Positions 5,661-33,845 of a stretch of DNA of 37,333 nt are shown piece after piece. Numbering within the stretch: position 1 is the first letter of the stretch; each line of letters opens with the position of its first letter. The translations under genes and the position numbers were made by a program. This DNA comes from Candidatus Aenigmatarchaeota archaeon. Lineage in GTDB: Archaea; Aenigmatarchaeota; Aenigmatarchaeia; QMZP01. Under the pieces are notes generated by a model. That model searched no databases and was not told the DNA's origin. It worked only from the letters and a program-made list of their open reading frames with translations. The stretch covers positions 1 through 37,333 of the forward strand of contig JAUWZW010000003.1 in NCBI GenBank assembly GCA_030615165.1, read 5' to 3'.

Positions 5661-5708
5661 ACTGTCAATTGACTTATTATCCCTTTAAGTTGACAATAAA
5701 AAGGGACA

Positions 5709-5738
5709 GGGGAACAGGTTTTGGTAACCCTGTTCCCC
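5709..5738. terminator. perfect 10-bp-stem hairpin (GGGGAACAGG / CCTGTTCCCC) between convergent genes, flanked by A/T runs on both strands
   Basis: It sits directly after the stop of 5034..5660 (+) and after the stop of 5750..6499 (-). It is preceded by the motif TTAAGTTGACAATAAAAAG (5686-5706) that recurs at 26634 and 29124. Confidence 0.6.
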
Positions 5739-5749
5739 AAAATAAATAT

Positions 5750-6560: not shown

Positions 6561-7703
6561 TCAATCTTTGCCAATATCCCTGACATCCGAAGTCCTTAGT
6601 GCATTGCGAATCTTGCGAATGCGTAAAGGCAGGAACCAGACATTCCGGATTCTGTACCACTCGATTTTGTTCTCGGGGTTGTTGACCACAACATCTCCTA
6701 TGAAGAAAGGCGGCAATGCTCTGAAGAGATTCGGGTATCTCGAATCAGCGTTCTTGGTACCGGCAACCGCGGTTTCGGTGCCGCCGATGAGATAGAACCT
6801 TCTTATGGTCTCGCTTTGCACCCAGTGCATCTTGTTCAGCCTTGTCCATATTATGGAACAAATGATGATAAACATCCAGACCACGCTCCAGACGAAAGCG
6901 AAATTCCTCAAGTCGCCCTGGTAGGCGATATCCAGCTCCACGTAATAGTCCTTGATATCTCCCAATATGTTTATGCCCTGGGTTCTCAAAAGGAAGAAAT
7001 TACCAAGCGGTAGCAGCAATGACAACAGCAAAAGGAACCCAATCATATGCTTGCTCATGGAGTTGTTGAGCGCACAAACAGCGTATACGCCAGTGAGAAT
7101 CCATATCAAGGCGCATGTGTTTGGGCTCAACCAGCCGGCATCGATTATAGGGCCCATAATGAATCCTGCAAGGACCATCCAGGTCAGGAATAGGAAATCA
7201 GAATAAGAGCCAAGTGCAGGCGCACCCGCCTCTGTTTTAATCACGAATAGCCTGATGGGCGCTTTGATTATAATTTTCAGGAACCCCGTTACCTTACCTT
7301 TAGTGTTCCTTCTCATGATAAGCCAGGCAATAACAACAAATGCTGCAGGCACTGCGGTATACATCACTACGGCTTTGCTCGTCTCCCATTCCATTACCAG
7401 GACGGCAATGGATGCGGCTATTCCAGCTATTCCGCATAGCACTCCAAAGACGGCTTTCAGCGTTATGGTATCTTTCCTGGATATTAGTAACAGCCACAAC
7501 ATCACTGCAGCCGTGGGCGCGGCGATATACAGGGCTATCATTTCGCTTGCCTTCCAATGGATTGTGTCCCTGTGGGCAATTATGCCGTATATCAGCGCCC
7601 CCAGATACGTGAATATGAACAGAGAGAACATCTTAGCAACAAGGGCTCCTTTGGAAGTTTCCGCATTTTTATCATTTTTTTGTGTTTTTTCTTCATTCAT
7701 CAT
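6561..7703 (-). CDS. polytopic integral membrane protein, function unknown
   Basis: 380 aa with about 9-10 hydrophobic helices. No recognisable motif. Confidence 0.55.
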   Translation of the reverse strand: MMNEEKTQKNDKNAETSKGALVAKMFSLFIFTYLGALIYGIIAHRDTIHWKASEMIALYIAAPTAAVMLWLLLISRKDTITLKAVFGVLCGIAGIAASIAVLVMEWETSKAVVMYTAVPAAFVVIAWLIMRRNTKGKVTGFLKIIIKAPIRLFVIKTEAGAPALGSYSDFLFLTWMVLAGFIMGPIIDAGWLSPNTCALIWILTGVYAVCALNNSMSKHMIGFLLLLSLLLPLGNFFLLRTQGINILGDIKDYYVELDIAYQGDLRNFAFVWSVVWMFIIICSIIWTRLNKMHWVQSETIRRFYLIGGTETAVAGTKNADSRYPNLFRALPPFFIGDVVVNNPENKIEWYRIRNVWFLPLRIRKIRNALRTSDVRDIGKD

Positions 7704-11445: not shown

Positions 11446-11904
11446 TTAGCAAATCCGAATACAGAGGTATATAAACCAGATTACGAAGATTATCCCAAAT
11501 ATAAACCTCAACCGTTTCCTCCAAGCGTCTTCTTTCTGGCTGTGGGGCTGCTGCCTTAACCGCCTGATAAGCCCCGAAGTGATGCTGAACAGGAACCATA
11601 GGGTCAATATGTAACCCGACCCCTTGAGCGCAAAATCATCCCAGGTGTTTATTTGGAGCAGACCTATCCGCAAATGGTTCAGAATCAGAAATGCGAATAT
11701 CAATGCTATACAGAACCGTACGGTGTACTTAGCAAACCATACCAGCCTGTTCCTGCCCATCTTTTCCTTTCTGGCCTTTTTGGCTATTTTCGCTGAATTG
11801 CCAGATAAACCAATGGTTTTCGGAGGCGGCCGCCACAGGCCCAAAGACCACAAGCTGAAACCACTGAAAAAGGCAATTAAGTATATTGCACACAGACTAT
11901 CCAT
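11446..11904 (-). CDS. small membrane protein, member 4 of a tandem paralog array
   Basis: It starts MDSLCAIYLIAFF behind a conserved RBS (GAAAGGAGGCACAAAATGGA). It has 3-4 TM helices. It shares the N-terminal signature with 12664..13140 and 13268..13717. Confidence 0.5.
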   Translation of the reverse strand: MDSLCAIYLIAFFSGFSLWSLGLWRPPPKTIGLSGNSAKIAKKARKEKMGRNRLVWFAKYTVRFCIALIFAFLILNHLRIGLLQINTWDDFALKGSGYILTLWFLFSITSGLIRRLRQQPHSQKEDAWRKRLRFIFGIIFVIWFIYLCIRIC

Positions 11905-12049
11905 TTTGTGCCTCCTTTCGTTTATCCATTTACGGGTTTTCATTATCCATTACCGGGTTTTTTGCTTAAACCCAAGAATTTATGACTGTTTATGGTCGTA
12001 TGACTGTTTTTGTTTATCGTTCATGAAGGCTATAACAAACCTACATATG

Positions 12050-12550
12050 CTAAAGAAGGGGCTGAAAGTGTATAATACATGAAGCTAATACACAGCCTAC
12101 CAAACCTACCAAAGTTATAACCCAGAAAACCAGCCATGTGCCCAACATAAGATCGGTGCCTACACTTTTGAATGGGTACTGAGATTTCCAATTCGCGGCC
12201 TGGTATTTCCCCTGTATGTTGACTTCCTCGATCCTTGACATGAACACGCTAAGGGCCGAGACAACCACCACGAAAGCCCCGCCCCAAAGGAACATGCCTT
12301 TAAAGCCGATGATCTTGAGGCCGAGGACATCAGTGATCAGCATAAGCAGGGCGCCTGCGACGATGAAACGCAGGATGAAACCAAAGCCCCAGATGAACAG
12401 GTTTTTTCTTGCTTGTCTTATTTCCGGTTTACTGCAGTATATGTTCAATACGTCCAATGCCTTCGGCAGCGATTTCAGCAGCTTCACGCGCCAGTTGAAT
12501 GCCGCGACGCCGAGAACGATATACGTTATTATCATGCTGTTCATTATCAT
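12050..12550 (-). CDS. small membrane protein, member 3 of the tandem paralog array
   Basis: FNWRVKLLKSLPKALDVLNI...RKNLFIWGFGFILRFIVAGALLMLITDVLGLKI is near-identical to the corresponding stretch of 13268..13717. The RBS is AAAGGAGAG. Confidence 0.55.
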   Translation of the reverse strand: MIMNSMIITYIVLGVAAFNWRVKLLKSLPKALDVLNIYCSKPEIRQARKNLFIWGFGFILRFIVAGALLMLITDVLGLKIIGFKGMFLWGGAFVVVVSALSVFMSRIEEVNIQGKYQAANWKSQYPFKSVGTDLMLGTWLVFWVITLVGLVGCVLASCIIHFQPLL

Positions 12551-12663
12551 TTGTGTCTCTCCTTTCTTGCATTCATTTCACATTTCTTTTATTGCTTTTC
12601 ATTAATTATCCGCAGGTTGGAGATGTTACCAACTGCGTCCTGATTTACTATTAGTTCACCATT

Positions 12664-13140
12664 CTACTGAAGTATTCTGAGTCTGGACACCACCAGGAGA
12701 ACCACCCAGATGTCAAGTAACACAATCCAATATTTCCACCAATTGGCCGAAATGTCGGTCTCGGCAGTATCCGCGGCGTATTTATGCTGGATGTACACTT
12801 CTTCAGAGACTGAAAAGACCAAGCTCAATATCCAGTAAACGAGTATGTAAGCTGGCCCCAGGGCAAGCAAGCCGCTCCATGTATGGATCCGGGCTCGGCC
12901 GACGAAATGCATGAACAGTGATGTTAATACAAGAATGACGCAAAACCTGCCAACGAATCCGGCGAACCATATCAACCTGTTCTTGTCCGTCATCACCTTC
13001 AGTTCCATAAGACACCTACTACAATTATCATCGTATCGACATTTCACATCAGTATCGCAGTTCAGCTTTTTCAACAGCGTCGTGCGCCAGTTGAAACATC
13101 CGGCAAGGGAAATTATGTATATTGCATACAGGTTATCCAT
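12664..13140 (-). CDS. small membrane protein, member 2 of the paralog array, with a Cys-rich insert
   Basis: It starts MDNLYAIYIIS behind the conserved RBS. The insert is CDTDVKCRYDDNCSRC. It also has IWFAGFVGRFCVILVL. Confidence 0.5.
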   Translation of the reverse strand: MDNLYAIYIISLAGCFNWRTTLLKKLNCDTDVKCRYDDNCSRCLMELKVMTDKNRLIWFAGFVGRFCVILVLTSLFMHFVGRARIHTWSGLLALGPAYILVYWILSLVFSVSEEVYIQHKYAADTAETDISANWWKYWIVLLDIWVVLLVVSRLRILQ

Positions 13141-13267
13141 TTTGTGCCTCCTTTCATTATGCCGAAAAATGCTAATGCTGAATAGCATATACAGTTAAAC
13201 CAATAATTGAAACTATTATCCAGATTACCAGAATTATGAACCATGTCCGTGCACGAATACGGATTGC

Positions 13268-13717
13268 TTAAAGATGACTAACTGTCCACTGAAAAAATCC
13301 TAACCGGTTAAGAACATATATCACAACTATAATGAACCAGATAATCAGAAGTACACTCCATGAAGCCGCCCATACATTAAAAGCTACTCCCTCGGGTGTT
13401 GACAGCTTTATGTTAATGAGTGAAACAACCACCACGAAAGCCCCACCCCAAATGAGCAGGCTCCACACGCTGGTTATTTTGAGGCCCAAGACGTCAGTGA
13501 TAAGCATAAGCAGGGCGCCTACGATGATGAAACGCAGGATGAAACCAAAGCCCCAGACGAACAGGTTTTTTCTTGCACGTCTTCTTTCCAGTTTGCCGGG
13601 ATTAGGGCCGCATATGTTCAATACGTCCAATGCCTTCGGCAGTGATTTCAGCAGCTTAACGTGCCAGTTGAATCCCGAGACAAGAGAAATAATATATATT
13701 GCATACAGGTTGTCCAT
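13268..13717 (-). CDS. small membrane protein, member 1 of the paralog array
   Basis: MDNLYAIYIISLVSGFNWHVKLLKSLPKALDVLNI... with 4 TM helices. Conserved RBS upstream. Confidence 0.55.
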   Translation of the reverse strand: MDNLYAIYIISLVSGFNWHVKLLKSLPKALDVLNICGPNPGKLERRRARKNLFVWGFGFILRFIIVGALLMLITDVLGLKITSVWSLLIWGGAFVVVVSLINIKLSTPEGVAFNVWAASWSVLLIIWFIIVVIYVLNRLGFFQWTVSHL

Positions 13718-13786
13718 TTTGGTCTCCTTTCCGCTTAGCTTATTGTTATTGATGGAACGGGTTTAGAGAAATTATACTGACAAAAT

Positions 13787-13833
13787 CAGCATGCAGGCAG
13801 CAAGTCCCTGACTTGCGTTCCCGCATGGTAACG
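13787..13833. repeat. hairpin-forming element A: CATGC...AAGTC ccT GACTT...GCATG
   Basis: It is about 80% similar to element B at 15683..15727. Both fold as nested inverted repeats: outer CATGC(A)/(T)GCATG and inner AAGTC/GACTT. Together they bracket the regulator cassette. Confidence 0.5.
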
Positions 13834-14276
13834 CTTATGTCATCAAGACAGCTTTCCAGACCAAAATTTAATCTGTCTGGCAATAGCTGTTAAGGTGTGT
13901 ATCTAGGAGCATGATATCAGCACGAAACGGTTTGAAACTGGCTAGCTACAATGAGGTCAATAACAATAGATTAACAAAAAAACTTTATATAGCTATCCAC
14001 CTTCCTTTTCAAAAAATCAGTAAAGTTAATGTTTCGGTTAATCGCAAAAAACAGAAAACCCGCTCCCGCAAACATAATTCCTATTTATGTTCATTTGTGT
14101 CAGGCAGGTTGGGTTCGGGCAAGTGCTGGATGGCTTGTCCCTGCTGCTTCCATTTTCTGTACTCTTCAGTATTGCGGAAGGAATTGATTTCTGTCGCGTT
14201 CGGGTCTTTTGTGATAGCCATTTCGACCTCACTATGAAGCAGAATTGAAAGGTCATCCCTGTAATAAATTGTGTCA

Positions 14277-14567
14277 TTAAAGCGCTTTGGCATTGACTTC
14301 TATTCTGACCAAATAACCCGGCACTTCAAAGACTATCTCTTTATGAAATGGCACAGAATTCGGGTCTATCAGAAAGGTTTCTCCCCGGCCCCCCAGGGTC
14401 CTTGCACCTTCATACATATGCCATCCCAAAGAGAATTCAATTCTTGCTAGTGCTGGTGCATCTGGATTCTGCTTGAATGTATTATTTTCCGGTGTGAGTA
14501 TAATTATTAATAAAAATACACACATGGAAAATACTAACCAAATTATTATCCTTTTTTTCCTTGACAT
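14277..14567 (-). CDS. small secreted or membrane-anchored protein
   Basis: 96 aa. The N-terminal signal-like helix is MSRKKRIIIWLVFSMCVFLLIIIL. It is tightly linked (3 nt) downstream of the LuxR gene. Confidence 0.4.
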   Translation of the reverse strand: MSRKKRIIIWLVFSMCVFLLIIILTPENNTFKQNPDAPALARIEFSLGWHMYEGARTLGGRGETFLIDPNSVPFHKEIVFEVPGYLVRIEVNAKAL

Positions 14568-14570
14568 GGG

Positions 14571-14900
14571 TTAATCCTCCTTATTAAGAAAATCTGCAAC
14601 TTCCATGAATCTCAGAAGCAGAGAAACTTTATTTGTCACCCGGGTTTTTGCAGAAATATGCTTTATATGTTGTTTTACGGTATTGACGCTTCTGTCCAAC
14701 TTCTTAGCAATATCCTTATTGGTTAACCCCTTGCATACAAGTTTCGCCACCTGCAATTGCCGGGGACTCAGATGAAAATGTTTCTGGAGACTTATCCACT
14801 GTTCATTATCAAAAACCTCAAAATCCGGCAGTTTGTTAGGGTCATCCTGGATATTGTTTTGGCGTGCCATTTTTGACATCACCTCCTTTCTTTCAATCAT
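14571..14900 (-). CDS. LuxR/GerE-type HTH transcription regulator
   Basis: The C-terminal region LSPRQLQVAKLVCKGLTNKDIAKKLDRSVNTVKQHIKHISAKTRVTNKVSLL matches the LuxR-type HTH signature. Confidence 0.7.
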   Translation of the reverse strand: MIERKEVMSKMARQNNIQDDPNKLPDFEVFDNEQWISLQKHFHLSPRQLQVAKLVCKGLTNKDIAKKLDRSVNTVKQHIKHISAKTRVTNKVSLLLRFMEVADFLNKED

Positions 14901-14903
14901 CTC

Positions 14904-15482
14904 CTAATAGATAATCGCTGTTGCTTCTTCAATCTTTTTGATAACTTCAGCCACATCGGCAGAATCGGATATGCAGCCGTCAAAGCCCTTCTGCAGCAGG
15001 GCGGCTGACTCGGAATCGTTCAACTCGCCCGCAAGGGCTATAATCTTGATGGTCTGCAAATCCTCATTGGAACGGATGCTTTTGCATAGGCCTGCTGCAT
15101 CTATGTCTTCAGCCAAGAGGTTGACCAATAGAACATGTGGTGCAAATTTCTGGGCGATTGCACCGGTCTCAAAATCACTATGTGTGGTTTGCACTTCGTA
15201 ATCTGTCTTGGTTCGCAAAGTATCAGCCAGGGCCGAGGCTGCTTTTTCGTTGCTGTTCACTATAAGGACCCGGATATTGCCGATTGGAAGTGTTGGCGCA
15301 GGCATGTTATGCGCTTTCATAAACCGGATCAGCTCTGCTACGGGTATCCTCCTGTCCTTGCTGCCAGGTATCCTGTATCCCTTCATCTGGCCTGTATCAA
15401 ACCACTTTGAGACTGTCCGGGGCGCTACATTGCAGATCCTTGCAACATCGCCTGTTGTCAGTACGTTTTTTCCCTTTGCCAT
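14904..15482 (-). CDS. excisionase/MerR-type HTH domain fused to a degenerate (pseudo-)receiver domain
   Basis: The likely start is MAKGKNVLTTGDVARICNVAPRTVSKWF... at 15482, with GGAGGT 8 nt upstream. The HTH is excisionase-family. A CheY-like fold follows (VLIVNSNEK...VLLVNLLAEDIDAAG...IKIIALAG), but the acidic pocket is altered (NS, N, A). Confidence 0.65.
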   Translation of the reverse strand: MAKGKNVLTTGDVARICNVAPRTVSKWFDTGQMKGYRIPGSKDRRIPVAELIRFMKAHNMPAPTLPIGNIRVLIVNSNEKAASALADTLRTKTDYEVQTTHSDFETGAIAQKFAPHVLLVNLLAEDIDAAGLCKSIRSNEDLQTIKIIALAGELNDSESAALLQKGFDGCISDSADVAEVIKKIEEATAIIY

Positions 15483-15682
15483 TGGTATACCTCCTTTCAA
15501 ACACCAAGCAGTACACAAGGCTGGGTTTCAGGTTTTGTGTTTGTCTCCGGTCAATGCTATTCCGCATAGAATAATAACAAATAATACGGGCGCAATAAAC
15601 ATGGCCAGAAAAAGTATCATCGGGTCTGATGTTTTTTATTTTCCATTTCTTGCCCTTTCGCAGAAATTTACCTAACAAAAAC

Positions 15683-15727
15683 AGCCATGCAAGAAGTCTT
15701 TGCTGACTTTCGTCCCTGCATGGTCAC
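15683..15727. repeat. hairpin-forming element B (CCATGCA...AAGTC tttgcT GACTT...TGCATGG), paralogous to element A
   Basis: It lies about 165 nt upstream of the HTH-REC gene. The sequence covaries with element A and preserves both stems. Confidence 0.5.
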
Positions 15728-15858
15728 GATTTAACTTCAAAGCCAAGCTGCCAGAACTGAATCTTCTATGGTTCAGTTATGACGCGGAAATCGCTGTTGG
15801 CTGTAATGTATGTATCAAGGGAACATGAATACTACTGCTTCATAGTTAATAGAAAATT

Positions 15859-16905
15859 TTATATACTTGTGAAATGGTATTTACTCAACTCGGTCCTGAA
15901 CCTCAGAAATCCAGCGACACCGCCCAGGCCCAGGAACTTCTCGCCTGATTCGTGCTCGGAGGAGATTATCACAATCGAGCCGCGCATCTTCTCGACCTGG
16001 TCCATCAGGCCTTCAAACCCCTTGACTTTCTCCTCGGAAACCAGAAGGGTTTCCACAGCGCCCATCCTGGCAGCGCTCTTTGTTTCCTTATCCCCGTAAA
16101 CAGCCTTCCCGTCCTTCCCTATTTCAACAAGAAGCCTCTCGACAAGCCCTGTCTCCTTTGCAACCCTTGTCTCTTTCAGGATTTTGTTCGCTGACCTCTT
16201 TATGACCTCCTGTATCCCTGTCTTCCCTGTGCTTGAGGCATATTCCAATGCAAGCTTTCCTGCGAGCTTTGGGTTTGCCTTATCTATGAACTCCAGAAGG
16301 TTCTCCTTTTCAAACCCTGGACCGGCAATAACCATTGCCTGGCAGCCCTTCTGCTTCTCCAGGACTGATAAAATATCCCTGTAGTAATCGCTCCTGTCCT
16401 CCCTGCCCTTTACCTTTTTGGCAGAAACAGAGCCCTTCATCTCAACACCTGATTCCTTAAGAACTGCAAAATCTGCCTGCTCCCTGTCAAGGATGCATAT
16501 GAACAGGAGGGGCTGCTTTACCATTGCCCTCTTTATCCTTTCAAGCTGGTATTGCTTCCATCCCTGTTCCTTTTTGATAGTCAGCACAGACCAGGGCTCT
16601 ATATTCAGGGTGTGGTAGGAGCTCAGCTTTATGTCCTCAGGGCCTGAAACAATCTTTCCCCTGAGGCGAAGGATTCCTGCCTGCCTCTCAACATCTTCCA
16701 GGTTTATCGTAAGTGTCATTGGCTTTCTCTCACCTTCCAGGATTTCCTTTCCCCTCTTGATTGCCTTCTTGCGCAGGGTCCTGGAGGTAACCAAATCCCC
16801 CTTCTCAAGTATCTTCTCCAGATGCCAGAGGTCATCCGGTGTTTCAACCCTGAACTTTATCTTGCCTTCCTTCCTGTCCTGGTGGATGATTTTCATAACC
16901 TTCAC
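15859..16905 (-). CDS. pelA: Pelota/Dom34 mRNA surveillance protein (eRF1-like)
   Basis: 348 aa starting MKVMKIIHQDRKEGKIKFRVETPDDLWHLEKIL... It has the eRF1 domain 1-3 architecture typical of archaeal Pelota. Confidence 0.85.
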   Translation of the reverse strand: MKVMKIIHQDRKEGKIKFRVETPDDLWHLEKILEKGDLVTSRTLRKKAIKRGKEILEGERKPMTLTINLEDVERQAGILRLRGKIVSGPEDIKLSSYHTLNIEPWSVLTIKKEQGWKQYQLERIKRAMVKQPLLFICILDREQADFAVLKESGVEMKGSVSAKKVKGREDRSDYYRDILSVLEKQKGCQAMVIAGPGFEKENLLEFIDKANPKLAGKLALEYASSTGKTGIQEVIKRSANKILKETRVAKETGLVERLLVEIGKDGKAVYGDKETKSAARMGAVETLLVSEEKVKGFEGLMDQVEKMRGSIVIISSEHESGEKFLGLGGVAGFLRFRTELSKYHFTSI

Positions 16906-17392: not shown

Positions 17393-18529
17393 ATGAGGCA
17401 GCTGAAAGGTGTTGAGGATTTCATATATGTGCTTGCAGTAGCGCTGATTCTGATACTTGTTTTTGCAGCCATATCCGCACTATGGCCTGTAGGGCCGGGC
17501 GGAGGTGTTGTCGGTAATGTTTCCATTGCAGAGTTCTCACTGGGAGGTGTTGGTTATTCAGGGGATTATGAAGCAAGCTCTATTACACTGGGCTCTTTCA
17601 GTGTCGGGGAGACCCAGACAGAGAATCTCAGGACCGCTCCGCAGCTAAGCCTTTCATCAAGCCTGCTCGGTTCGAAAAAAGAGACCTTCAGCATAAATGT
17701 GCTCAGCGCGTACCAGGATTCCCTGAGGGATGTTCTGATAAGCTTTGATGTTTTTGAGACAAACCAGTATGGGGATTTGGTTGTGAAATGGAACGGGAAT
17801 GAGTTCTACAGGGGCAGGGCGAGCCCGAGGGATTACAGCATTGTTATTGACAAGAGCAGCGTGAAGAGCATGAACACGCTGGAGATTTACTGCGACGGGC
17901 CGGGGCTAATATTCTGGGCATCCACTGTATATACGCTCAGGAACTTCAATGTTGACCTGGAATACGGGCCATCAAAGATATTTGCGTTCACCCTCTCCCA
18001 GGGAGAGATAGAGGCATGGGACAGGGGAGAGGTGAGTTTTTACGGCTTTGGAACAGGGGACAAACTGACCCTTGAGGTTAATGATGTTGAGATATATGAG
18101 CAGGCCCCTTCCGGTTCCACAACCATTACGTTCAACTACACGTCTGCCCCGCTCAGGGTCGGGCAGAACCTTCTAACCATTAAAACAGATACAGGTGTCT
18201 TTACCCTGCAGAATGCGGTGTTCAAGATATTCCTTCTCACAAACCTTGTTGCAAAGCAGAGGACATTCGAGCTGGATTCTGACCAGTATGCCAGGCTGGC
18301 AGAGCAGGGTTATGCAGGTGTAATAGAGTTCAAGGTGGATTCCATTGAAAGGTCTGGTGTTCTGGATGTGGAATTGAACAGGAATGACCTGGCAGTGCCC
18401 CTTCCGCGGACAGGATGGAACAACATCACGTTCACTGATGCAGAGGCGAGTATAGGGACCAACACACTCGAATTCTCAGGAAACGGCTACTGGGACATAA
18501 GCGAAGTAAAGGTCAGGCTGGAGAAATAG
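17393..18529 (+). CDS. N-terminally anchored extracellular protein, beta-rich, unknown function
   Basis: 378 aa with one N-terminal TM helix (FIYVLAVALILILVFAAISAL), then a Gly/Thr/Ser-rich beta-like sequence. Confidence 0.55.
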   Translation: MRQLKGVEDFIYVLAVALILILVFAAISALWPVGPGGGVVGNVSIAEFSLGGVGYSGDYEASSITLGSFSVGETQTENLRTAPQLSLSSSLLGSKKETFSINVLSAYQDSLRDVLISFDVFETNQYGDLVVKWNGNEFYRGRASPRDYSIVIDKSSVKSMNTLEIYCDGPGLIFWASTVYTLRNFNVDLEYGPSKIFAFTLSQGEIEAWDRGEVSFYGFGTGDKLTLEVNDVEIYEQAPSGSTTITFNYTSAPLRVGQNLLTIKTDTGVFTLQNAVFKIFLLTNLVAKQRTFELDSDQYARLAEQGYAGVIEFKVDSIERSGVLDVELNRNDLAVPLPRTGWNNITFTDAEASIGTNTLEFSGNGYWDISEVKVRLEK

Positions 18530-18569: not shown

Positions 18570-18992
18570 TCAGGAGTTTAGAAGCCTGAGCATTTCCCCT
18601 GGCTTAACAATCTTGATGCCCCTGAATTCTCTAAGATTCAGTATGTGTTTATCATAAGAAACGATATATTCGGCGTTACTGTCAAGTGCAGCATCAAGCA
18701 TGATATTGTCTGCCGGATGCTCTTTTATTACATTAATAACCGATTTTGTATGGATAAGCGTGCTGATTTTCAGAATTGTCCTTATCAAATCCTCTATATT
18801 TTGTTTCCTTTCATCAAGAAAACGCTGGAATTTGGACTCCTTGCTCAACACCGCCGCAATTTCAAGCAGGATATCCCTGGTTATGGTTATTTCAATTCTG
18901 TCCTTTTCCGCTAACTCAATGATTCTGCTGGCTTCCCCTTCCCAGAATATTGCAGAAAGCCAGACATTGCTATCCAGGACCGCTCTTATCAT
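18570..18992 (-). CDS. vapC: PIN-domain ribonuclease toxin (VapC-like)
   Basis: It starts MIRAVLDSNVWLSAIFWEGEAS. The acidic PIN residues are conserved (D at 7, E at 44, D at 100/118). It overlaps the upstream antitoxin by 4 nt. Confidence 0.8.
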   Translation of the reverse strand: MIRAVLDSNVWLSAIFWEGEASRIIELAEKDRIEITITRDILLEIAAVLSKESKFQRFLDERKQNIEDLIRTILKISTLIHTKSVINVIKEHPADNIMLDAALDSNAEYIVSYDKHILNLREFRGIKIVKPGEMLRLLNS

Positions 18993-19261
18993 TTACCAGA
19001 CCTTCTAACCTCTTCTATAAGCACGTCCAACTCTTCCTTTTTGAAACCGGACATTTTTGCTGCCTTTCTAAAGGGCTTCACAGCCTCTCTCCAGGGTTTT
19101 ATCCTTGGCATTTCGATCTTCTTCAGCAGAATCATGTCGTCCTGTGATGTTACTGCAAACGGCGTTCCCTCCTTTAGATGGAGATCCTGCCTTATGTCCT
19201 GGGGTATTACAATCTGGCCCTTTGAGGACAGTTTTGTGAATTCTACCGTCATATTTATCAC
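18989..19261 (-). CDS. vapB: AbrB/SpoVT (MazE-like) swapped-hairpin antitoxin (VapB-like)
   Basis: MINMTVEFTKLSSKGQIVIPQDIRQDLHLKEGTPFAV is a classic SpoVT/AbrB N-terminus. 90 aa. Confidence 0.75.
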   Translation of the reverse strand: MINMTVEFTKLSSKGQIVIPQDIRQDLHLKEGTPFAVTSQDDMILLKKIEMPRIKPWREAVKPFRKAAKMSGFKKEELDVLIEEVRRSGK

Positions 19262-26617: not shown

Positions 26618-26654
26618 TTTTATTTTAAATCCCGTTAAGTTGACAAATAAAAGC

Positions 26655-26685
26655 GGGGGCTGGTTTTTTGGAACCATACCCCCAC
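26655..26685. terminator. conserved GC hairpin (GGGGGCTGGTT tttt GGAACCATACCCCC) between convergent genes
   Basis: It follows the stop of 23219..26617 (+) and the stop of 26708..27253 (-). It is preceded by GTTAAGTTGACAAATAAAAG. The core CTGGTT..GGAACCATA..CCCC is shared with the copies at 29150 and 30953. Confidence 0.6.
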
Positions 26686-28725: not shown

Positions 28726-29149
28726 AATAAAACCTTTGAGACACGCTTATCAGGAACCAGGAAGGGGTTCTTCCCGGGTTAAAAAGGATTTGATAGGTTC
28801 GGCTATACAAAAACCCTCATCCCAAGACCGAATGCATGCGCCTATAAGTTTTATGCATTGTTAACTTCTCAAGGCACAATATGGTTTGGGATTCGGTTAT
28901 AGCCAAGTTCTTCAATGTTGTCTGCAACAGAATATTTATTCAAATATCCTGAGGACCCGAATGGGTTTCATGTGATGTTGTATTTGTGGAATATGATGAT
29001 ATGATGTATTGAATATGAAAGTGATATTGCTTAATTATACAGGGGAAAGCTTTATAAACCTTTCTGTATTTGTCACTGTAAAGAAGTTAAATATTTGTTA
29101 TATTTGGTTTATTCTTTGACGCCGTTAAGTTGACAGTTACAAAAGGAAA

Positions 29150-29185
29150 GGCGGGGCTGGTTCTTGGGAACCATATAACCCCGCC
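29150..29185. terminator. conserved GC hairpin GGCGGGGCTGGTTC ttgg GAACCATATAACCCCGCC downstream of the PspA-like gene
   Basis: Followed (on the minus strand) by TTTCCTTTTGTAACTGTCAACTTAAC. This is the same module as at 26634-26685. Confidence 0.6.
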
Positions 29186-29208: not shown

Positions 29209-30114
29209 TTAGTTGTTCACATCAGGGGACAGTATTACTACTTCAGGCTCGGCACTTTCAGGCTCCGGCTCTGCAGCAGCTGGCTCCTCAGTGCTGGCAG
29301 GCGGCTCGGTGCCGAAGTAAGCGTTGATTGCTTCAGTAGCATTCCTTGGCCCAACCTCGGCTTCCCAGTCAACTATCTCACCCCTGCCTGTTCCAACCGC
29401 AGTTTCACGGGTAACCCTCAGATCAGCTTCAAGCTCCAGATAACGGTTCTGAAGGGCGTTCATTGCCCTTGTGACACCGCTGGCAGAACCAAGGGGGTCG
29501 CCCTTGATAGCCTTAACAAGTTCTGAAACCTGAACCTCTACCTGTTTGGCAGCGATCTTGGCTTCCCATTCCTGGATTTTGCCCGTAAGTTCATTAACCT
29601 TGTTGGTAGCAATAACCAGCTGACTCTTTGCCTCTTCTATCTCTCTGCTAAGCCCCTCAAGAAGGATTTCCTTCTCTTTTATTTCTGTATCCAGGGCTTT
29701 GCAGCGGTCGATCCGGAGGAGGGCATCCTGGTTAACCTGCTCCCAGGTATAGGATTTGTTGTTGACTGTGATGGAATTGCCAGGCTGGCTGTTGGCAAGA
29801 ACCGTCTTGACTTTCTTCAGTATGGCCTCATTGCCTGCCTTGCGCTCTTTGAGCTCTTCAACATCTTCTGCGATAAGATTTGCCTTGATTTCACCCCTGC
29901 TGATATTCACATGATAGTTGCGAATTTTTCCTCGGCATTTCTCAGCTTCATCTTTGGCTATATCCACAAGGGTGTTAAGAGAGGCCTTATCGTCAAGATA
30001 ATCCGCAACACGTTTGCCCCTTGCATTGATGTGAGCACCCAGGTTGGGGACAATTGTCCAACCTAATACAGCAACTATGGCGACAGCCACTACAATAATC
30101 CAAAAAGTTTTCAT
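29209..30114 (-). CDS. N-terminally anchored coiled-coil protein, PspA/IM30/ESCRT-III-like (tentative), with acidic/Pro tail ending ...VVILSPDVNN
   Basis: The probable start is MKTFW (GAGGTG 6 nt upstream). The track ORF start at 30123 appears to be a GTG. The TM is WIIVVAVAIVAVLGWTIV. Long amphipathic helices (LIAEDVEELKERKAGNEAILKK...; ...GSASGVTRAMNALQNRYLELEADLRVTRE) resemble the PspA helix pattern. It is about 65% identical to 31037..31858. Confidence 0.6.
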   Translation of the reverse strand: MKTFWIIVVAVAIVAVLGWTIVPNLGAHINARGKRVADYLDDKASLNTLVDIAKDEAEKCRGKIRNYHVNISRGEIKANLIAEDVEELKERKAGNEAILKKVKTVLANSQPGNSITVNNKSYTWEQVNQDALLRIDRCKALDTEIKEKEILLEGLSREIEEAKSQLVIATNKVNELTGKIQEWEAKIAAKQVEVQVSELVKAIKGDPLGSASGVTRAMNALQNRYLELEADLRVTRETAVGTGRGEIVDWEAEVGPRNATEAINAYFGTEPPASTEEPAAAEPEPESAEPEVVILSPDVNN

Positions 30115-30120
30115 AATACA

Positions 30121-30245
30121 CACCTCTTTTCTTCACAAAAAGGGTTAACATTTTTGCAAGCTTCCTCAATAATCTGTTCTGTCTGTTTGGGGGATTTTCT
30201 GAATAACCTCCTTTCTGCCAGGGACCCATGCCAGGCAGACAGAAA
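30121..30245. repeat. promoter/5'UTR block copy 1, duplicated at 31863..31987 with near identity
   Basis: About 115 nt are almost identical: ...TTCACAAAAAGGGTTAACATTTTTGCAAGCTTCCTCAATAATCTGTTCTGTCTGTTTGGGGGATTTTCTGAATAACCTCCTTTCT..GGGACCCATGCCAGGCAGACAGAAA. It contains an inverted repeat TCTGCC...GGCAGA. Confidence 0.7.
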
Positions 30246-31036: not shown

Positions 31037-31858
31037 TCATTCGCTTTGCCCTGAGAAGTAGGCGTCAATTGCTTCAGCAGCTTTCCTTGGTGCGATATCG
31101 CCTTCCCAGTCAACGATGTTATCCCTGCCTGTTCCGACCGCGGTTTCACGGGCAACCCTTACATTGGCTTCAAGCTCCAGATAGCGGTCCTGAAGGGCGT
31201 TCATTGCCCTTGTAATCCCGCTGGTAGAACCAAGGGGGTCGCCCTTGATAGCCTTAACAAGTTCTGAAATCTCGACCTCTACCTCTTTGACAGCGATCTT
31301 GATTTCCCATTCCTGGATTTTTCCCGTCAGCTGGTTGGTTTTATCAATAGCAATAACCATCTGCCTCTCCGCATCTTCTATCTCTCTGTTGAGCCCATCA
31401 AGAAGGGTTTCCTTCTCTTTTATTTCGGTATCCAGGGTTTTGCAGCGGTCGATCCGGAGGAGGGCATCCTGGTTAACCTGCTCCCAGGTATAGGATTTGT
31501 TGTTGACTGTGATGGTGTCGCCAGGCTGGTTTTCCTTAAGAGCCTTCCCTGCTTTCTTGAGTATGGCCTCGTTGCCTGCCTTGCGCTCCTTGAGCTCTTC
31601 AACATCTTCTGCGATAAGATTTGCCTTGATTCTGCACCTGCTGATGTTCATCTGGTACTCAGATATCCTTTCAAGGCTTTTCTGGACTTCCTTTTTAGCA
31701 ATGTCAATGAGCTCCTGCAGAGACGCCTTCTTGTCAAGGTACTCCGCAGCACGCTCACCCTTTGCACTGATGTGAGCGCCCAGGTTGGGGATGACTGCAG
31801 AGGCAATGGCACCAAGTATGCAGACAGCCACCACGATAATTAGTATTTTTCTAAACAT
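31037..31858 (-). CDS. PspA/IM30/ESCRT-III-like (tentative) membrane-anchored coiled-coil protein, tandem paralog of 29209..30114
   Basis: The probable start is MFRKILIIVVAV (GAGGTG 4 nt upstream). Many stretches of about 75 nt are identical to the paralog at nucleotide level (e.g. 31441-31516 matches 29700-29775). The C-terminus differs (...AYFSGQSE). Confidence 0.6.
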   Translation of the reverse strand: MFRKILIIVVAVCILGAIASAVIPNLGAHISAKGERAAEYLDKKASLQELIDIAKKEVQKSLERISEYQMNISRCRIKANLIAEDVEELKERKAGNEAILKKAGKALKENQPGDTITVNNKSYTWEQVNQDALLRIDRCKTLDTEIKEKETLLDGLNREIEDAERQMVIAIDKTNQLTGKIQEWEIKIAVKEVEVEISELVKAIKGDPLGSTSGITRAMNALQDRYLELEANVRVARETAVGTGRDNIVDWEGDIAPRKAAEAIDAYFSGQSE

Positions 31859-31862
31859 AATA

Positions 31863-31987
31863 CACCTCTGTTTCTTCACAAAAAGGTTAACATTTTTGCA
31901 AGCTTCCTCAATAATCTGTTCTGTCTGTTTGGGGGATTTTCTGAATAACCTCCTTTCTACCCGGGACCCATGCCAGGCAGACAGAAA
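31863..31987. repeat. promoter/5'UTR block copy 2
   Basis: See 30121..30245. Confidence 0.7.
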
Positions 31988-32771: not shown

Positions 32772-33845
32772 CTAACGCTTCGGTTTTTGCTTGACCTCAA
32801 AACCTTTCCAAACTTGATGGGGAAGTGGGGATTGTTTTTTCTCTGGCCGGGACTTCTTTGGTTCTGACTTCTCTGGCCGGGATTTTTTGCCGCTCTTTTC
32901 TTCATTTTTTTTCAGGATACTCTCAATTCTCTCATATGCTTTACTATCCTTCTTTTGTTCCTTAAGGGCGGCTCTGAGCTCCGGCTCCACCTCGGTGCCT
33001 AAGTCCACCAGTATGAAGGTGGCATGGTCCTGAATAGCACCGGAACCCTTCAAGCTGTCATTAATGATCCTCCTAACTGGTGACCTGTCTGCCGGGTTAG
33101 TCTGGATGAGTGACTTGTCAGCATATAAACTTAATTTCCTTTCTTCAGGATCGCTGTTTTTTGCATAGTAGCTTTCCATAATCACCTTCAGTACAGGGAC
33201 AGCCGCCTTTGCATTGGGGCCTATCTCTCCTAGGGCTTTTATTGCTGCCAGGCGCACATGAATCTCAGAATCACCCACGGCTGTTTTTACAAGCGCAGGA
33301 ACAGCAGGAGCAGATGCAGGGCCTATCTTTCCCAGGGCTTCTGCAGCAGCTAATCGTATATTACCATATCTGTCAGACAGTTTGGTGTTGAGTGTCTTGA
33401 CTGCATCCTTAGCCCTGGATCCCATCTTCCCTATGGCATTGATAACTGCTACCTGCAGCACCTTCGGTTGCGAATCACCAAGGCTTTTAACAAGCGCGCT
33501 TACTGCTTCTTTTGTATCCTCTGCATCCGGACCTATTTCACCAAGTATTTCAGCAGCAGCAATGCGTATATCAGCGCTTTTACTGCCTAGCTGCTTTATC
33601 AGCGGCTTTACAGCAGGCCTGCCTATCTTTACCAGGGATTTTTGAACGTTCTTTTTTATTCCGGTATCCTTGTATTTCTCGCAGAGGAGTTTGACAAGCT
33701 CTTCAGCGACATCTGCTTCTGTTGGTATGTTGGGGTTTGCCTCGGTATTGGCCTTTTCAGGCACATAGCCCATCGCGATGTTACAGCTGTACAGGATCGG
33801 CAGCAGAACTATTAGTATTCTTATTGTCTTGTTCAGGTGTTTCAT
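32772..33845 (-). CDS. secreted/lipo HEAT-repeat (PBS-lyase-type) protein with a K-rich C-terminal tail
   Basis: The signal peptide is MKHLNKTIRILIVLLPILYSCNIAMG. Repeats are IRIAAAEILGEIGPDA, IRLAAAEALGKIGPAS and VRLAAIKALGEIGPNA. The tail is KKSRPEKSEPKKSRPEKKQ. Confidence 0.65.
   Translation of the reverse strand: MKHLNKTIRILIVLLPILYSCNIAMGYVPEKANTEANPNIPTEADVAEELVKLLCEKYKDTGIKKNVQKSLVKIGRPAVKPLIKQLGSKSADIRIAAAEILGEIGPDAEDTKEAVSALVKSLGDSQPKVLQVAVINAIGKMGSRAKDAVKTLNTKLSDRYGNIRLAAAEALGKIGPASAPAVPALVKTAVGDSEIHVRLAAIKALGEIGPNAKAAVPVLKVIMESYYAKNSDPEERKLSLYADKSLIQTNPADRSPVRRIINDSLKGSGAIQDHATFILVDLGTEVEPELRAALKEQKKDSKAYERIESILKKNEEKSGKKSRPEKSEPKKSRPEKKQSPLPHQVWKGFEVKQKPKR

What the first reader, a model, noticed from the sequence alone, without database searches (positions are those of the whole stretch)
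13787..15727. Regulatory cassette (HTH-pseudoreceiver + LuxR + 2 small proteins) bracketed by two related hairpin-forming direct repeats
Elements at 13787-13833 and 15683-15727 are about 80% identical. Both fold into nested inverted repeats (CATGCA/TGCATG outer, AAGTC/GACTT inner), with variation that keeps both stems. They flank a 1.9-kb unit encoding bacterial-style regulators. They could be operator or terminator structures, att-like boundaries of an acquired cassette, or a small structured RNA.
Basis: seen in the sequence. Interest (0 to 1): 0.55.

Follow-up and report, generated by a model that had tools for sequence, protein, structure and literature searches.

The report
Paralogous promoter-leader RNA modules, not cassette boundaries
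The two hairpin repeats are the ends of two related ~230-base promoter-plus-structured-leader modules that each sit in front of their own gene cluster in a DPANN (Aenigmatarchaeota) archaeon; they look like brackets only because a regulator gene cluster, carrying its own copy, moved in next to the other copy.

Summary
Both hairpins are real, related and non-random, and they flank a 1.9-kb unit encoding an HTH+pseudo-receiver protein, a LuxR solo and small proteins. The repeat is much longer than reported: about 230 nt on the minus strand. It runs from a strong TATA box (TATATAAA) through a conserved 5' motif, a branched helix domain (P2) and the nested hairpin (P3) plus U4-5, and ends just before an RBS and ATG.

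A close relative (pelota 90% identical) has an empty site: pelota, one E1 copy, then the membrane-protein genes. Its E2 copy lies 7 kb away, in front of its own LuxR cluster. The breakpoints fall 5-7 nt upstream of each TATA box, not in the hairpins. So E2 is the first part of the moved unit and E1 belongs to the neighbouring operon. The att-like reading is not supported, and no recombinase is present.

A covariance model finds only these copies, plus one divergent copy in a more distant Aenigmatarchaeote. That copy keeps the P2 architecture with different stem sequences: 14 pairs changed on both sides, 0 of 500 shuffles as good. There is no Rfam match.

Most likely these are a lineage-restricted family of structured 5' leaders, possibly attenuator-like. 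The mechanism is inferred. Moderate interest.

The parts
13999..15873 (-). Relocated transcription unit ('cassette'): E2 promoter-leader, 30-aa ORF, HTH+pseudo-receiver, LuxR solo, 96-aa and 70-aa ORFs, own T-rich terminator
   Evidence: Absent from the same site in L001/L002. Homology breakpoints were mapped by pairwise alignment. Orthologous E2, 30-aa ORF and LuxR lie 7 kb away in L001.
15858..15865 (-). E2 TATA box (TATATAAA); it overlaps the stop codon of the altered pelota ORF
   Evidence: It lies in a 50-nt stretch around it that is identical in the window and L001 (alignment). Strict TATA-like motifs are rare in the window.
15667..15832 (-). E2 leader RNA (5' motif UUCAUGUUCC, P2, linker, P3, U-tract)
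   Evidence: Covariance-model hits of 175.8 and 156.8 bits. Consensus fold.
15741..15802 (-). E2 P2 domain: closing helix AGCCAA/UUGGCU enclosing two hairpins (three-way junction)
   Evidence: Two compensatory double changes against L001/L017.
15685..15723 (-).
15677..15681 (-). U5 tract directly 3' of E2 P3
   Evidence: Read from the sequence. Conserved in all copies.
15528..15620 (-). 30-aa hydrophobic ORF
   Evidence: 90% amino-acid identity to a called 30-aa gene in L001.
14904..15482 (-). HTH_17 (excisionase/BldC-type) + receiver domain lacking the phospho-acceptor Asp
14571..14900 (-). LuxR/GerE solo regulator
   Evidence: 66% identical ortholog in L001. The nearest other homologs are bacterial.
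14277..14567 (-). 96-aa ORF with an N-terminal hydrophobic segment, no family
14081..14293 (-). 70-aa ORF, no family
14040..14075 (-). T-rich stretch (T4...T6 on the minus strand) after the last cassette ORF: likely terminator of the cassette
   Evidence: Read from the sequence. Function inferred.
13984..13991 (-). E1 TATA box (TATATAAA)
   Evidence: Homology with L001 begins 5-6 nt upstream of it.
13772..13917 (-). E1 leader RNA core (5' motif AUCAUGCUCC, P2, linker, P3, U-tract)
   Evidence: Covariance-model hits of 42.6 bits (model built from E2 copies only) and 125.9 bits. 91.6% identical over 238 nt to L001.
13848..13890 (-). E1 P2 domain (ACAGCU/AGCUGU closing helix, one inner hairpin)
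13790..13827 (-).
   Evidence: All three window-vs-L001 substitutions inside it fall in unpaired positions.
13782..13785 (-). U4 tract 3' of E1 P3
   Evidence: Read from the sequence.
13268..13717 (-). First of four paralogous small membrane-protein genes served by E1 (RBS GGAAAGGAG 8 nt before the ATG)
15859..16905 (-). Pelota gene; its 3' end is altered at the insertion junction

Best explanation
E1 and E2 are two paralogous 'promoter plus structured 5' leader' modules on the minus strand. Each starts with a strong archaeal TATA box. It is then transcribed through a conserved 5' motif (UCAUGYUCC), a branched helix domain (P2) and the sequence-conserved nested hairpin (P3: CCAUGC...AAGUC...GACUU...GCAUGG) followed by U4-5. 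It ends 15-70 nt later at a Shine-Dalgarno sequence and the ATG of the first gene of an operon. E1 serves the membrane-protein array. E2 serves the variable cluster that contains the LuxR regulator.

The hairpin with its U-tract just before the RBS most likely acts as a conditional stop or pause, or as a stability element, in the leader. This would be attenuator-like. Because the two operons share the same conserved hairpin, they would be co-regulated by one factor that recognises it.

The apparent bracketing arose because the E2-led transcription unit was relocated to the position right after pelota, directly upstream of E1.

Shown: the anatomy, the paralogy, the empty site, the breakpoints, the conservation and the covariation in P2. 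Inferred: transcription from these TATA boxes on the minus strand, co-transcription with the downstream genes, and the regulatory role of P3 and the U-tract.
For: Extent and orientation
- The similarity spans TATA box to RBS in both copies.
- TATATAAA occurs three times in the window (once on the plus strand at 11468), and its only two minus-strand copies head these two modules.
- TATA-like boxes elsewhere lie 29-82 nt before start codons. Here they lie 245 and 274 nt before them.

Empty site and relocation
- L001/L002 have pelota, E1 and the membrane genes with no cassette. Their E2 lies 7 kb away, before the 30-aa ORF and LuxR. L017 has the same E2 position.
- Breakpoints fall 5-7 nt upstream of the TATA boxes.

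Leader rather than separate gene
- In L001 and L017 the ATG of the next ORF is about 20 nt after the U-tract and is preceded by the RBS GAAAGGA. That leaves no room for a separate promoter.
- The same RBS context follows E1.

Selection on the element
- E1 is 91.6% identical between genomes, while the gene it precedes is only 72% identical at protein level.
- All 3 substitutions inside E1 P3 are in unpaired bases.

Structure
- Single-sequence folds recover the P2 and P3 architecture for E1 and both E2 copies; the fold of the distant L020 copy recovers the two inner P2 hairpins.
- The E2 trio is 98.3% paired with 3 double compensatory changes; slid controls give 0-1.
- With E1 and the distant L020 copy added, 96.5% of cells are paired and 14 pairs changed on both sides. 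0 of 500 shuffles did as well, and slid controls gave at most 4.

Specificity
- The model built from E2 alone finds E1 at 42.6 bits and L020 at 34 bits. The best background in 745 kb of other archaeal DNA is 17 bits.
- In L020 the hit again sits about 29 nt after a TATA box (TTTATAAAG) and just before an RBS and ATG.

Spacing
- Loop and internal-loop lengths of P3 differ between E1 and E2 (3 vs 6 nt) while the arms are kept. This fits a hairpin better than a rigid dsDNA dimer site.
Against: - There are no transcript data, so the strand and the transcript ends are inferred.
- P3 shows no double compensatory change. Its arms are simply conserved in sequence, and one pair goes G.U to A.C in L001/L017.
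- Hairpin energies do not favour one strand consistently. The sense strand is better in three copies and the antisense strand in two.
- The TATA box is nearly symmetric (TTTATATA on the plus strand).
- U4-5 is a weak archaeal terminator.
- Only six distinct sequences from four organisms are available, and the alignment used was fitted to the model.
- E1 lacks one of the P2 hairpins and L020 lacks P3, so no invariant ligand-pocket-like core is evident.
- No conserved alternative (anti-terminator) pairing could be established.
Confidence: 0.55

Rival explanations
1. Stand-alone small RNA genes. Each module is a TATA-driven transcript of about 160-190 nt that ends at the P3 hairpin plus U-tract and acts in trans. 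The downstream operons are expressed independently or by incidental read-through.
For: A strong TATA box, a structured body and a terminal hairpin with a U-run look like an sRNA gene. Rearrangement junctions coincide with the end of the module: a 174-aa gene is inserted or deleted right after the U-tract.
Against: In L001/L017 the next ATG and its RBS follow the U-tract by about 20 nt with no promoter in between. All six copies are immediately followed by a same-strand RBS and ORF. U4-5 tracts are weak terminators.
Confidence: 0.15
2. Double-stranded DNA operators. The conserved inverted repeats (CCATGCAGG...CCTGCATGG and AAGTC...GACTT) would be binding sites for the LuxR solo and/or the HTH+pseudo-receiver protein. 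The regulator would then auto-regulate its own cluster through E2 and control the membrane-protein operon through E1.
For: Both arms are conserved in sequence rather than covarying. Hairpin energy shows no consistent strand preference. P3 is present in the genomes that carry the LuxR cluster and absent from the L020 copy, which has no LuxR gene in the 12 kb held. The E1 inner repeat is a perfect 7-3-7 palindrome.
Against: The inner half-site spacing differs by 3 bp between E1 and E2, and the outer arms are 21-23 bp apart. Both are atypical for a GerE-type dimer (established knowledge of lux/tra/NarL boxes). The site lies about 150-190 nt downstream of the TATA box, next to a U-tract and an RBS. 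This reading does not explain covariation in the neighbouring P2 domain.
Confidence: 0.12
3. Neutral paralogy. An ancestral promoter-proximal region was duplicated together with a gene cluster, and the hairpins have no function of their own.
For: Only two copies per genome segment. The family is confined to a narrow lineage.
Against: E1 is far better conserved than the gene it precedes. Substitutions avoid paired positions. P2 covaries, including in a distant copy.
Confidence: 0.08
4. Terminators (3' ends) of the upstream genes: pelota for E2 and the cassette for E1.
For: A hairpin followed by a U-run on the same strand as the upstream genes.
Against: Each module begins with its own TATA box. 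The cassette has a separate T-rich terminator at ~14040-14075. The upstream gene differs between genomes (pelota or the 249-aa gene), while the downstream RBS context travels with the element. The consensus terminator scan did not call them. The genome uses a different recurring 3'-end module.
Confidence: 0.05
5. Recombination sites bounding a mobile cassette: att-like sites, integron attC sites, or IS200/IS605-type end hairpins.
For: Two similar hairpin-forming direct repeats flank a unit that is absent from the same site in a relative. Integron attC sites have been reported in Aenigmatarchaeota MAGs (PMC9668308).
Against: E1 is present in the empty site, and E2 lies at another locus in three relatives. 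Breakpoints are about 170-190 nt away from the hairpins. No identical core is longer than 7 nt. No RYYYAAC/GTTRRRY boxes are seen in the sequence. No integrase or transposase is found in the window. There is no Rfam hit.
Confidence: 0.03

Closest known systems
Bacterial transcription-attenuation leaders / riboswitch expression platforms
   Same: A promoter, a long structured 5' UTR, then a GC-rich hairpin followed by a U-run placed just upstream of the RBS of the first gene. The same leader is shared by more than one operon.
   Different: The host is an archaeon (DPANN), where termination needs only oligo-U and attenuation is essentially undescribed. No conserved aptamer-like core exists: E1 lacks one P2 hairpin and L020 lacks P3. 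No alternative anti-terminator pairing was found. There is no match to any Rfam family.
Archaeal sRNA genes with a TATA promoter and an oligo-U 3' end
   Same: The TATA box, a structured body of about 160-190 nt and a terminal hairpin with a U-tract.
   Different: Every copy is immediately followed by a same-strand RBS and ORF with no intervening promoter. It therefore looks like a cis leader rather than an independent gene.
Integron attC sites / gene cassettes (reported in Archaea, PMC9668308)
   Same: Imperfect nested inverted repeats in direct orientation around a gene unit whose regulator's nearest homologs outside the lineage are bacterial.
   Different: There are no R''/R' boxes and no integrase. 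The cassette junctions are not in the hairpins. The unit has several genes, its own promoter and its own terminator. One repeat is present in the empty site.
LuxR-type operators (lux box, tra box, NarL 7-2-7 sites)
   Same: Inverted repeats with a TGCAG/CTGCA-like core next to a LuxR-family gene.
   Different: The arm spacing of 21-23 bp and the variable inner spacing (3 vs 6 bp) do not fit a single dimer site. The position is far downstream of the promoter.

Membership tests
Integron attC site / gene cassette | Conserved R'' (RYYYAAC) and R' (GTTRRRY) boxes at the base of the hairpin | tested here: not met
   Read on both strands of 13780-13840 and 15675-15735. The candidates GTTACCA, GTTCCCG and CGGGAAC do not fit the consensus. 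There is no Rfam match either.
Integron attC site / gene cassette | Cassette junctions lie inside the recombination site | tested here: not met
   Breakpoints against L001 are at window ~13998 and ~15873, about 170-190 nt from the hairpins.
Integron attC site / gene cassette | Integron integrase (IntI) or an array of single-ORF promoterless cassettes | tested here: not met
   No integrase domain was found in any long ORF of the window. The unit has 5 ORFs plus its own TATA box and terminator.
Site-specific att sites (attL/attR) | An identical core sequence shared by the two flanking sites; the empty site carries one hybrid or parental copy at the junction | tested here: not met
   The longest identical run is 7 nt. 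The empty site carries a full E1 ortholog, and the E2 ortholog is elsewhere.
IS200/IS605-type ends | Subterminal hairpins at both ends of an element encoding or depending on TnpA/TnpB | tested here: not met
   No transposase is present in the window. E1 lies outside the inserted segment.
Any curated RNA family (Rfam 15) | Score at or above the family gathering threshold | tested here: not met
   0 hits at gathering thresholds over the whole window. Only chance-level hits at E up to 10 in 13700-15900.
Structured cis-regulatory 5' leader (generic class) | Lies between a promoter and the RBS/ATG of a same-strand gene, in every copy | tested here: met
   A TATA box upstream and an RBS plus ATG downstream were seen for E1 (window, L001), E2 (window, L001/L002, L017) and L020. 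The promoter activity itself is inferred.
Structured cis-regulatory 5' leader (generic class) | Secondary structure supported by covariation | tested here: inconclusive
   P2 has 14 pairs with changes on both sides, 0 of 500 shuffles as good, and slid controls of at most 4. There are only 6 distinct sequences and the alignment was fitted to the model. P3 has no double change.
Structured cis-regulatory 5' leader (generic class) | Transcribed as part of the downstream mRNA, with conditional termination or occlusion | not testable with these tools
   Needs transcript 5'/3' end mapping or in-vitro transcription.
Intrinsic-terminator-like site | GC-rich stem directly followed by at least 5 T in 8 | tested here: inconclusive
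   The consensus scan did not report either element. E2 has T5 two bases after the stem. E1 has only T4.
Response regulator receiver (phosphorylatable) | Acidic pair, phospho-acceptor Asp, and conserved Thr/Ser and Lys | tested here: not met
The alignment to VraR shows DD replaced by NS, Asp55 by Asn, Thr by Ala, and Lys not aligned.

The most novel reading that the evidence does not exclude
The E modules are a previously undescribed family of archaeal attenuator-type leader RNAs. A conserved hairpin plus U-tract just before the RBS is read by a dedicated factor, protein or ligand. That factor would decide whether RNA polymerase continues into fast-evolving membrane-protein and regulator operons of DPANN archaea. 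This would be a clear case of post-initiation, leader-based gene control in archaea. The module would also serve as a portable 'promoter-leader' head for exchangeable gene clusters.
Probability: 0.2. Interest if true: 0.65.

Novelty: new member of a known kind. Interest (0 to 1): 0.4.

Why it matters
In archaea, regulation after transcription initiation is poorly documented. [quoted passage not shown] No cis-regulatory RNA turned up for Aenigmatarchaeota in the literature I searched.

A conserved, structured leader shared by two operons, one of which encodes transcription regulators, gives a concrete and testable candidate for such control in uncultured, host-dependent archaea.

The locus is also a clean natural example of whole transcription units, from TATA box to terminator, being shuffled in the variable region of these small genomes. 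It includes a cluster whose LuxR regulator has its nearest homologs outside this lineage in bacteria.

If the leader turns out to be only a stable 5' UTR, the finding is ordinary.

Tried and rejected
- Exact look-ups of the window's HTH-REC and pelota proteins found nothing on record.
- A hairpin pattern scan of genome contigs gave 8 hits in unrelated organisms (7 bacteria, 1 archaeon). That is about the number I estimated by hand for a pattern this degenerate, and none matched the covariance model.
- A stricter pattern in metagenome contigs gave 0 hits. The viral-contig scan gave 3 chance hits with no model match.
- The LuxR homolog search returned only bacterial contexts, which were useless for the element.
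- A pelota-based fetch of 80 JGI loci (745 kb) and 8 further loci gave no additional family member. Only about 11 of the JGI loci match pelota at 49% identity or better, which I took as Aenigmatarchaeota-like.
- A weak model hit at L002 718-781 was checked and rejected, because its 5' motif is not conserved in the window ortholog.
- C/D-box sRNA reading: UGAUGA...CUGA is present in E1 but absent from all E2 copies, so I rejected it. The H/ACA reading was rejected because there is no ACA box.
- Leader-peptide reading of the conserved AUG: rejected, because E2 in the window has a stop at codon 4 and the peptides are not conserved.
- SD-sequestering pairing of the 5' motif with the RBS is seen in the L020 fold but is not consistently supported in E1 or E2.
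- The strand of P3 could not be settled from wobble pairs or folding energy; the results are mixed.
- No GC anomaly marks the cassette. There is no similarity to known plasmids or phages.
Full report
**Source and layout**

Pelota homologs place the window in the Aenigmatarchaeota (DPANN archaea), and the window is a whole 37,333-bp NCBI contig. All relevant genes are on the minus strand. In order they are:
- pelota (15859-16905)
- the second repeat
- a 30-aa hydrophobic ORF (15528-15620)
- an HTH_17 + receiver protein (14904-15482)
- a GerE/LuxR solo (14571-14900)
- two small ORFs (14277-14567 and 14081-14293)
- the first repeat
- four paralogous small membrane-protein genes (13268-13717 and onward)
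- an ankyrin-repeat protein

**Checking the observation**

The two reported elements align with 36 identities, about 77-80% of their residues. The score is about 6 sd above random 45-mers of the window. A degenerate 26-mer from their shared half occurs only at these two places and never in 100 shuffles. Both fold into the nested hairpin with z-scores of -1.8 to -3.3.

The protein annotations hold. The receiver domain lacks the acidic pair, the phospho-acceptor Asp, the Thr and the Lys (alignment to VraR), so "pseudo-receiver" is correct.

The similarity is not confined to the hairpins. Read on the minus strand, it runs about 220-240 nt from a TATATAAA box to just before the next gene. TATATAAA occurs three times in the window, and its only two minus-strand copies head these two modules. 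I call the modules E1 (13762-13998) and E2 (15655-15873).

**Comparison with relatives**

Two contigs from one close relative (L001 and L002, pelota 90% identical) show pelota followed directly by a single E1 ortholog (91.6% over 238 nt) and the membrane-protein genes. There is no regulator cluster there, so this is an empty site. Their E2 ortholog (82% over 206 nt) lies 7 kb further on, after a 249-aa gene. It sits in front of a 174-aa gene, the same 30-aa ORF (90% amino-acid identity) and a LuxR ortholog (66%). A third genome (L017) has E2 in that same position.

Pairwise alignments place the breakpoints 5-7 nt upstream of each TATA box, at window ~13998 and ~15873. The pelota ORF of the window carries a 5-nt insertion and now runs into the E2 TATA box, so I infer that the window arrangement is the derived one.

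The moved unit is therefore 13999-15873. It begins with E2 and ends with its own T-rich stretch (~14040-14075). E1 lies outside it and belongs to the membrane-protein operon.

The two repeats do not bound a mobile element:
- The hairpins are about 170-190 nt from the junctions.
- There is no shared identical core longer than 7 nt.
- I saw no integron R boxes on either strand of the sequence.
- No recombinase domain occurs anywhere in the window.

**What the modules are**

In L001 and L017 the ATG of the ORF after E2 lies about 20 nt past the U-tract and is preceded by the RBS GAAAGGA. The same RBS context follows E1. There is no room for another promoter. Other strict TATA-like boxes in the window sit 29-82 nt before start codons, against 245 and 274 nt here. 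The simplest reading is a long 5' leader.

E1 is much better conserved between genomes than the gene it precedes, which is 72% identical at protein level. The three substitutions inside its hairpin all fall in unpaired bases.

Single-sequence folds recover a common architecture for E1 and both E2 copies, and the fold of the distant L020 copy recovers the inner P2 hairpins. The elements are:
- a 5' motif, UCAUGYUCC
- a closing helix around one or two hairpins (P2)
- a linker
- the nested hairpin P3
- a U4-5 tract

For the three E2 sequences, 98.3% of cells pair and there are 3 double compensatory changes; slid controls give 0-1.

**Family size and covariation**

A covariance model built from E2 alone finds E1 (42.6 and 32.1 bits). 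It also finds one new copy in a more distant Aenigmatarchaeote, L020 (pelota 65% identical), at 34 bits. The best score in 745 kb of other archaeal DNA is 17 bits.

The L020 copy starts about 29 nt after a TTTATAAAG box. It ends just before a GGAAAGGAGG RBS and an uncalled Zn-ribbon ORF. It keeps the P2 three-way junction with entirely different stem sequences.

Over all six distinct sequences, 96.5% of cells pair and 14 pairs changed on both sides. None of 500 shuffles did as well, and slid controls gave at most 4. The caveat is that this alignment was fitted to the model.

P3 behaves differently. It is conserved in sequence, shows only wobble-compatible changes plus one disruptive change, and is missing in L020.

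Pattern scans and model searches found no further copies:
- representative genomes
- JGI metagenomes
- viral contigs
- about 160 kb of other Aenigmatarchaeota loci

Nothing matches Rfam, plasmids or phages.

**Mechanism**

I commit to the leader reading with about 0.55 confidence. The TATA box drives a transcript whose structured leader ends in P3 plus U4-5 next to the RBS. This acts as a conditional stop, pause or stability element. The shared, sequence-conserved hairpin lets one factor control both operons.

Steps shown: the anatomy, the paralogy, the relocation, the conservation pattern and the covariation in P2. Steps inferred: strand and start of transcription, co-transcription with the downstream genes, and any regulatory switch.

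Points against:
- Hairpin energies do not favour one strand consistently.
- The TATA box is nearly symmetric.
- The U-tracts are short.
- The sample is small.

**Rivals**

- A stand-alone sRNA gene (0.15).
- A dsDNA operator for the LuxR or HTH proteins (0.12). The arms' sequence conservation favours it. The 3-bp difference in inner spacing and the wide arm separation count against it.
- Neutral paralogy (0.08).
- Terminators of the upstream genes (0.05).
- Recombination sites (0.03).

**Comparison with known systems**

The element works most like a bacterial attenuator or expression platform. It is not a member of any curated RNA family, and it fails every defining test for attC, att or IS-end sites. 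It is best filed as a new, narrowly distributed member of the general class of structured leader or small RNAs.

Interest is moderate (0.4). The att-like cassette idea is refuted. What remains is a testable candidate for leader-based control in DPANN archaea, and a clear example of transcription-unit shuffling.

Noticed in passing
window 5679-5745, 26629-26680, 29119-29175 (also L001 ~18395-18450, L002 ~540-600, L017 ~6570-6625): A recurring 3'-end module: a GC-rich hairpin, a T-rich stretch, then the conserved motif TTGTCAACTTAA(A/C)GG. It lies after several minus-strand genes. Synteny with L001 breaks immediately after the copy at 5679. It may be this lineage's terminator module or another rearrangement hotspot.
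   Followed up: partly
window 15859-15900: The pelota ORF has a 5-nt insertion (ACCGA) relative to L001. This shifts the frame past the ancestral stop, so the ORF ends at a TAA inside the E2 TATA box and gains about 12 residues.
   Followed up: yes
window 15620-15667; L001 18752-19276; L017 6930-6960: A 174-aa membrane-protein gene sits between E2 and the 30-aa ORF in L001/L002. It is deleted in the window and, with a different junction that keeps 8 codons, in L017. Short similar sequences (GAAAGGA...AATG..AATAAA) flank it.
   Followed up: partly
window 15528-15620 (minus): An unannotated-looking 30-aa hydrophobic ORF (MILFLAMFIAPVLFVIILCGIALTGDKHKT) is 90% identical to a called gene in L001. 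Its function is unknown.
   Followed up: partly
window 11446-13717; L001 11367-12897; L002 10178-11708: An array of paralogous small membrane proteins varies in copy number and content between closely related strains. The family was found almost only in this lineage (11 hits in 5.8 billion proteins).
   Followed up: partly
window 28726-29100 (minus); L002 520-1040: Another long conserved non-coding leader (81% identity between genomes). It starts at a TTTATAAAG box about 370 nt before the next ATG and is unrelated in sequence to E1/E2.
   Followed up: no
L020 6186-6571: A distant E-like leader is followed by an uncalled 71-aa basic Zn-ribbon ORF (MGKCRGAKRRNCKPRIECSSCGH...).
   Followed up: partly
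window 14571-14900; L011, L015: Outside this lineage, the nearest homologs of the LuxR solo (49-52% identity) lie in bacterial contexts, next to DUF3870, PEP-CTERM/exosortase-type and Kdo genes. This suggests an old cross-domain acquisition.
   Followed up: partly
window 18570-19261 (minus): A PIN-domain toxin plus a MazE/AbrB-type antitoxin pair (VapBC-like).
   Followed up: no
window 29209-30123 and 31037-31879; 33217-33571: Tandemly duplicated paralogous genes (84-92% identical blocks spaced 1741 nt apart). There is also a 4 x ~100-nt periodic repeat inside a HEAT-repeat protein gene.
   Followed up: no
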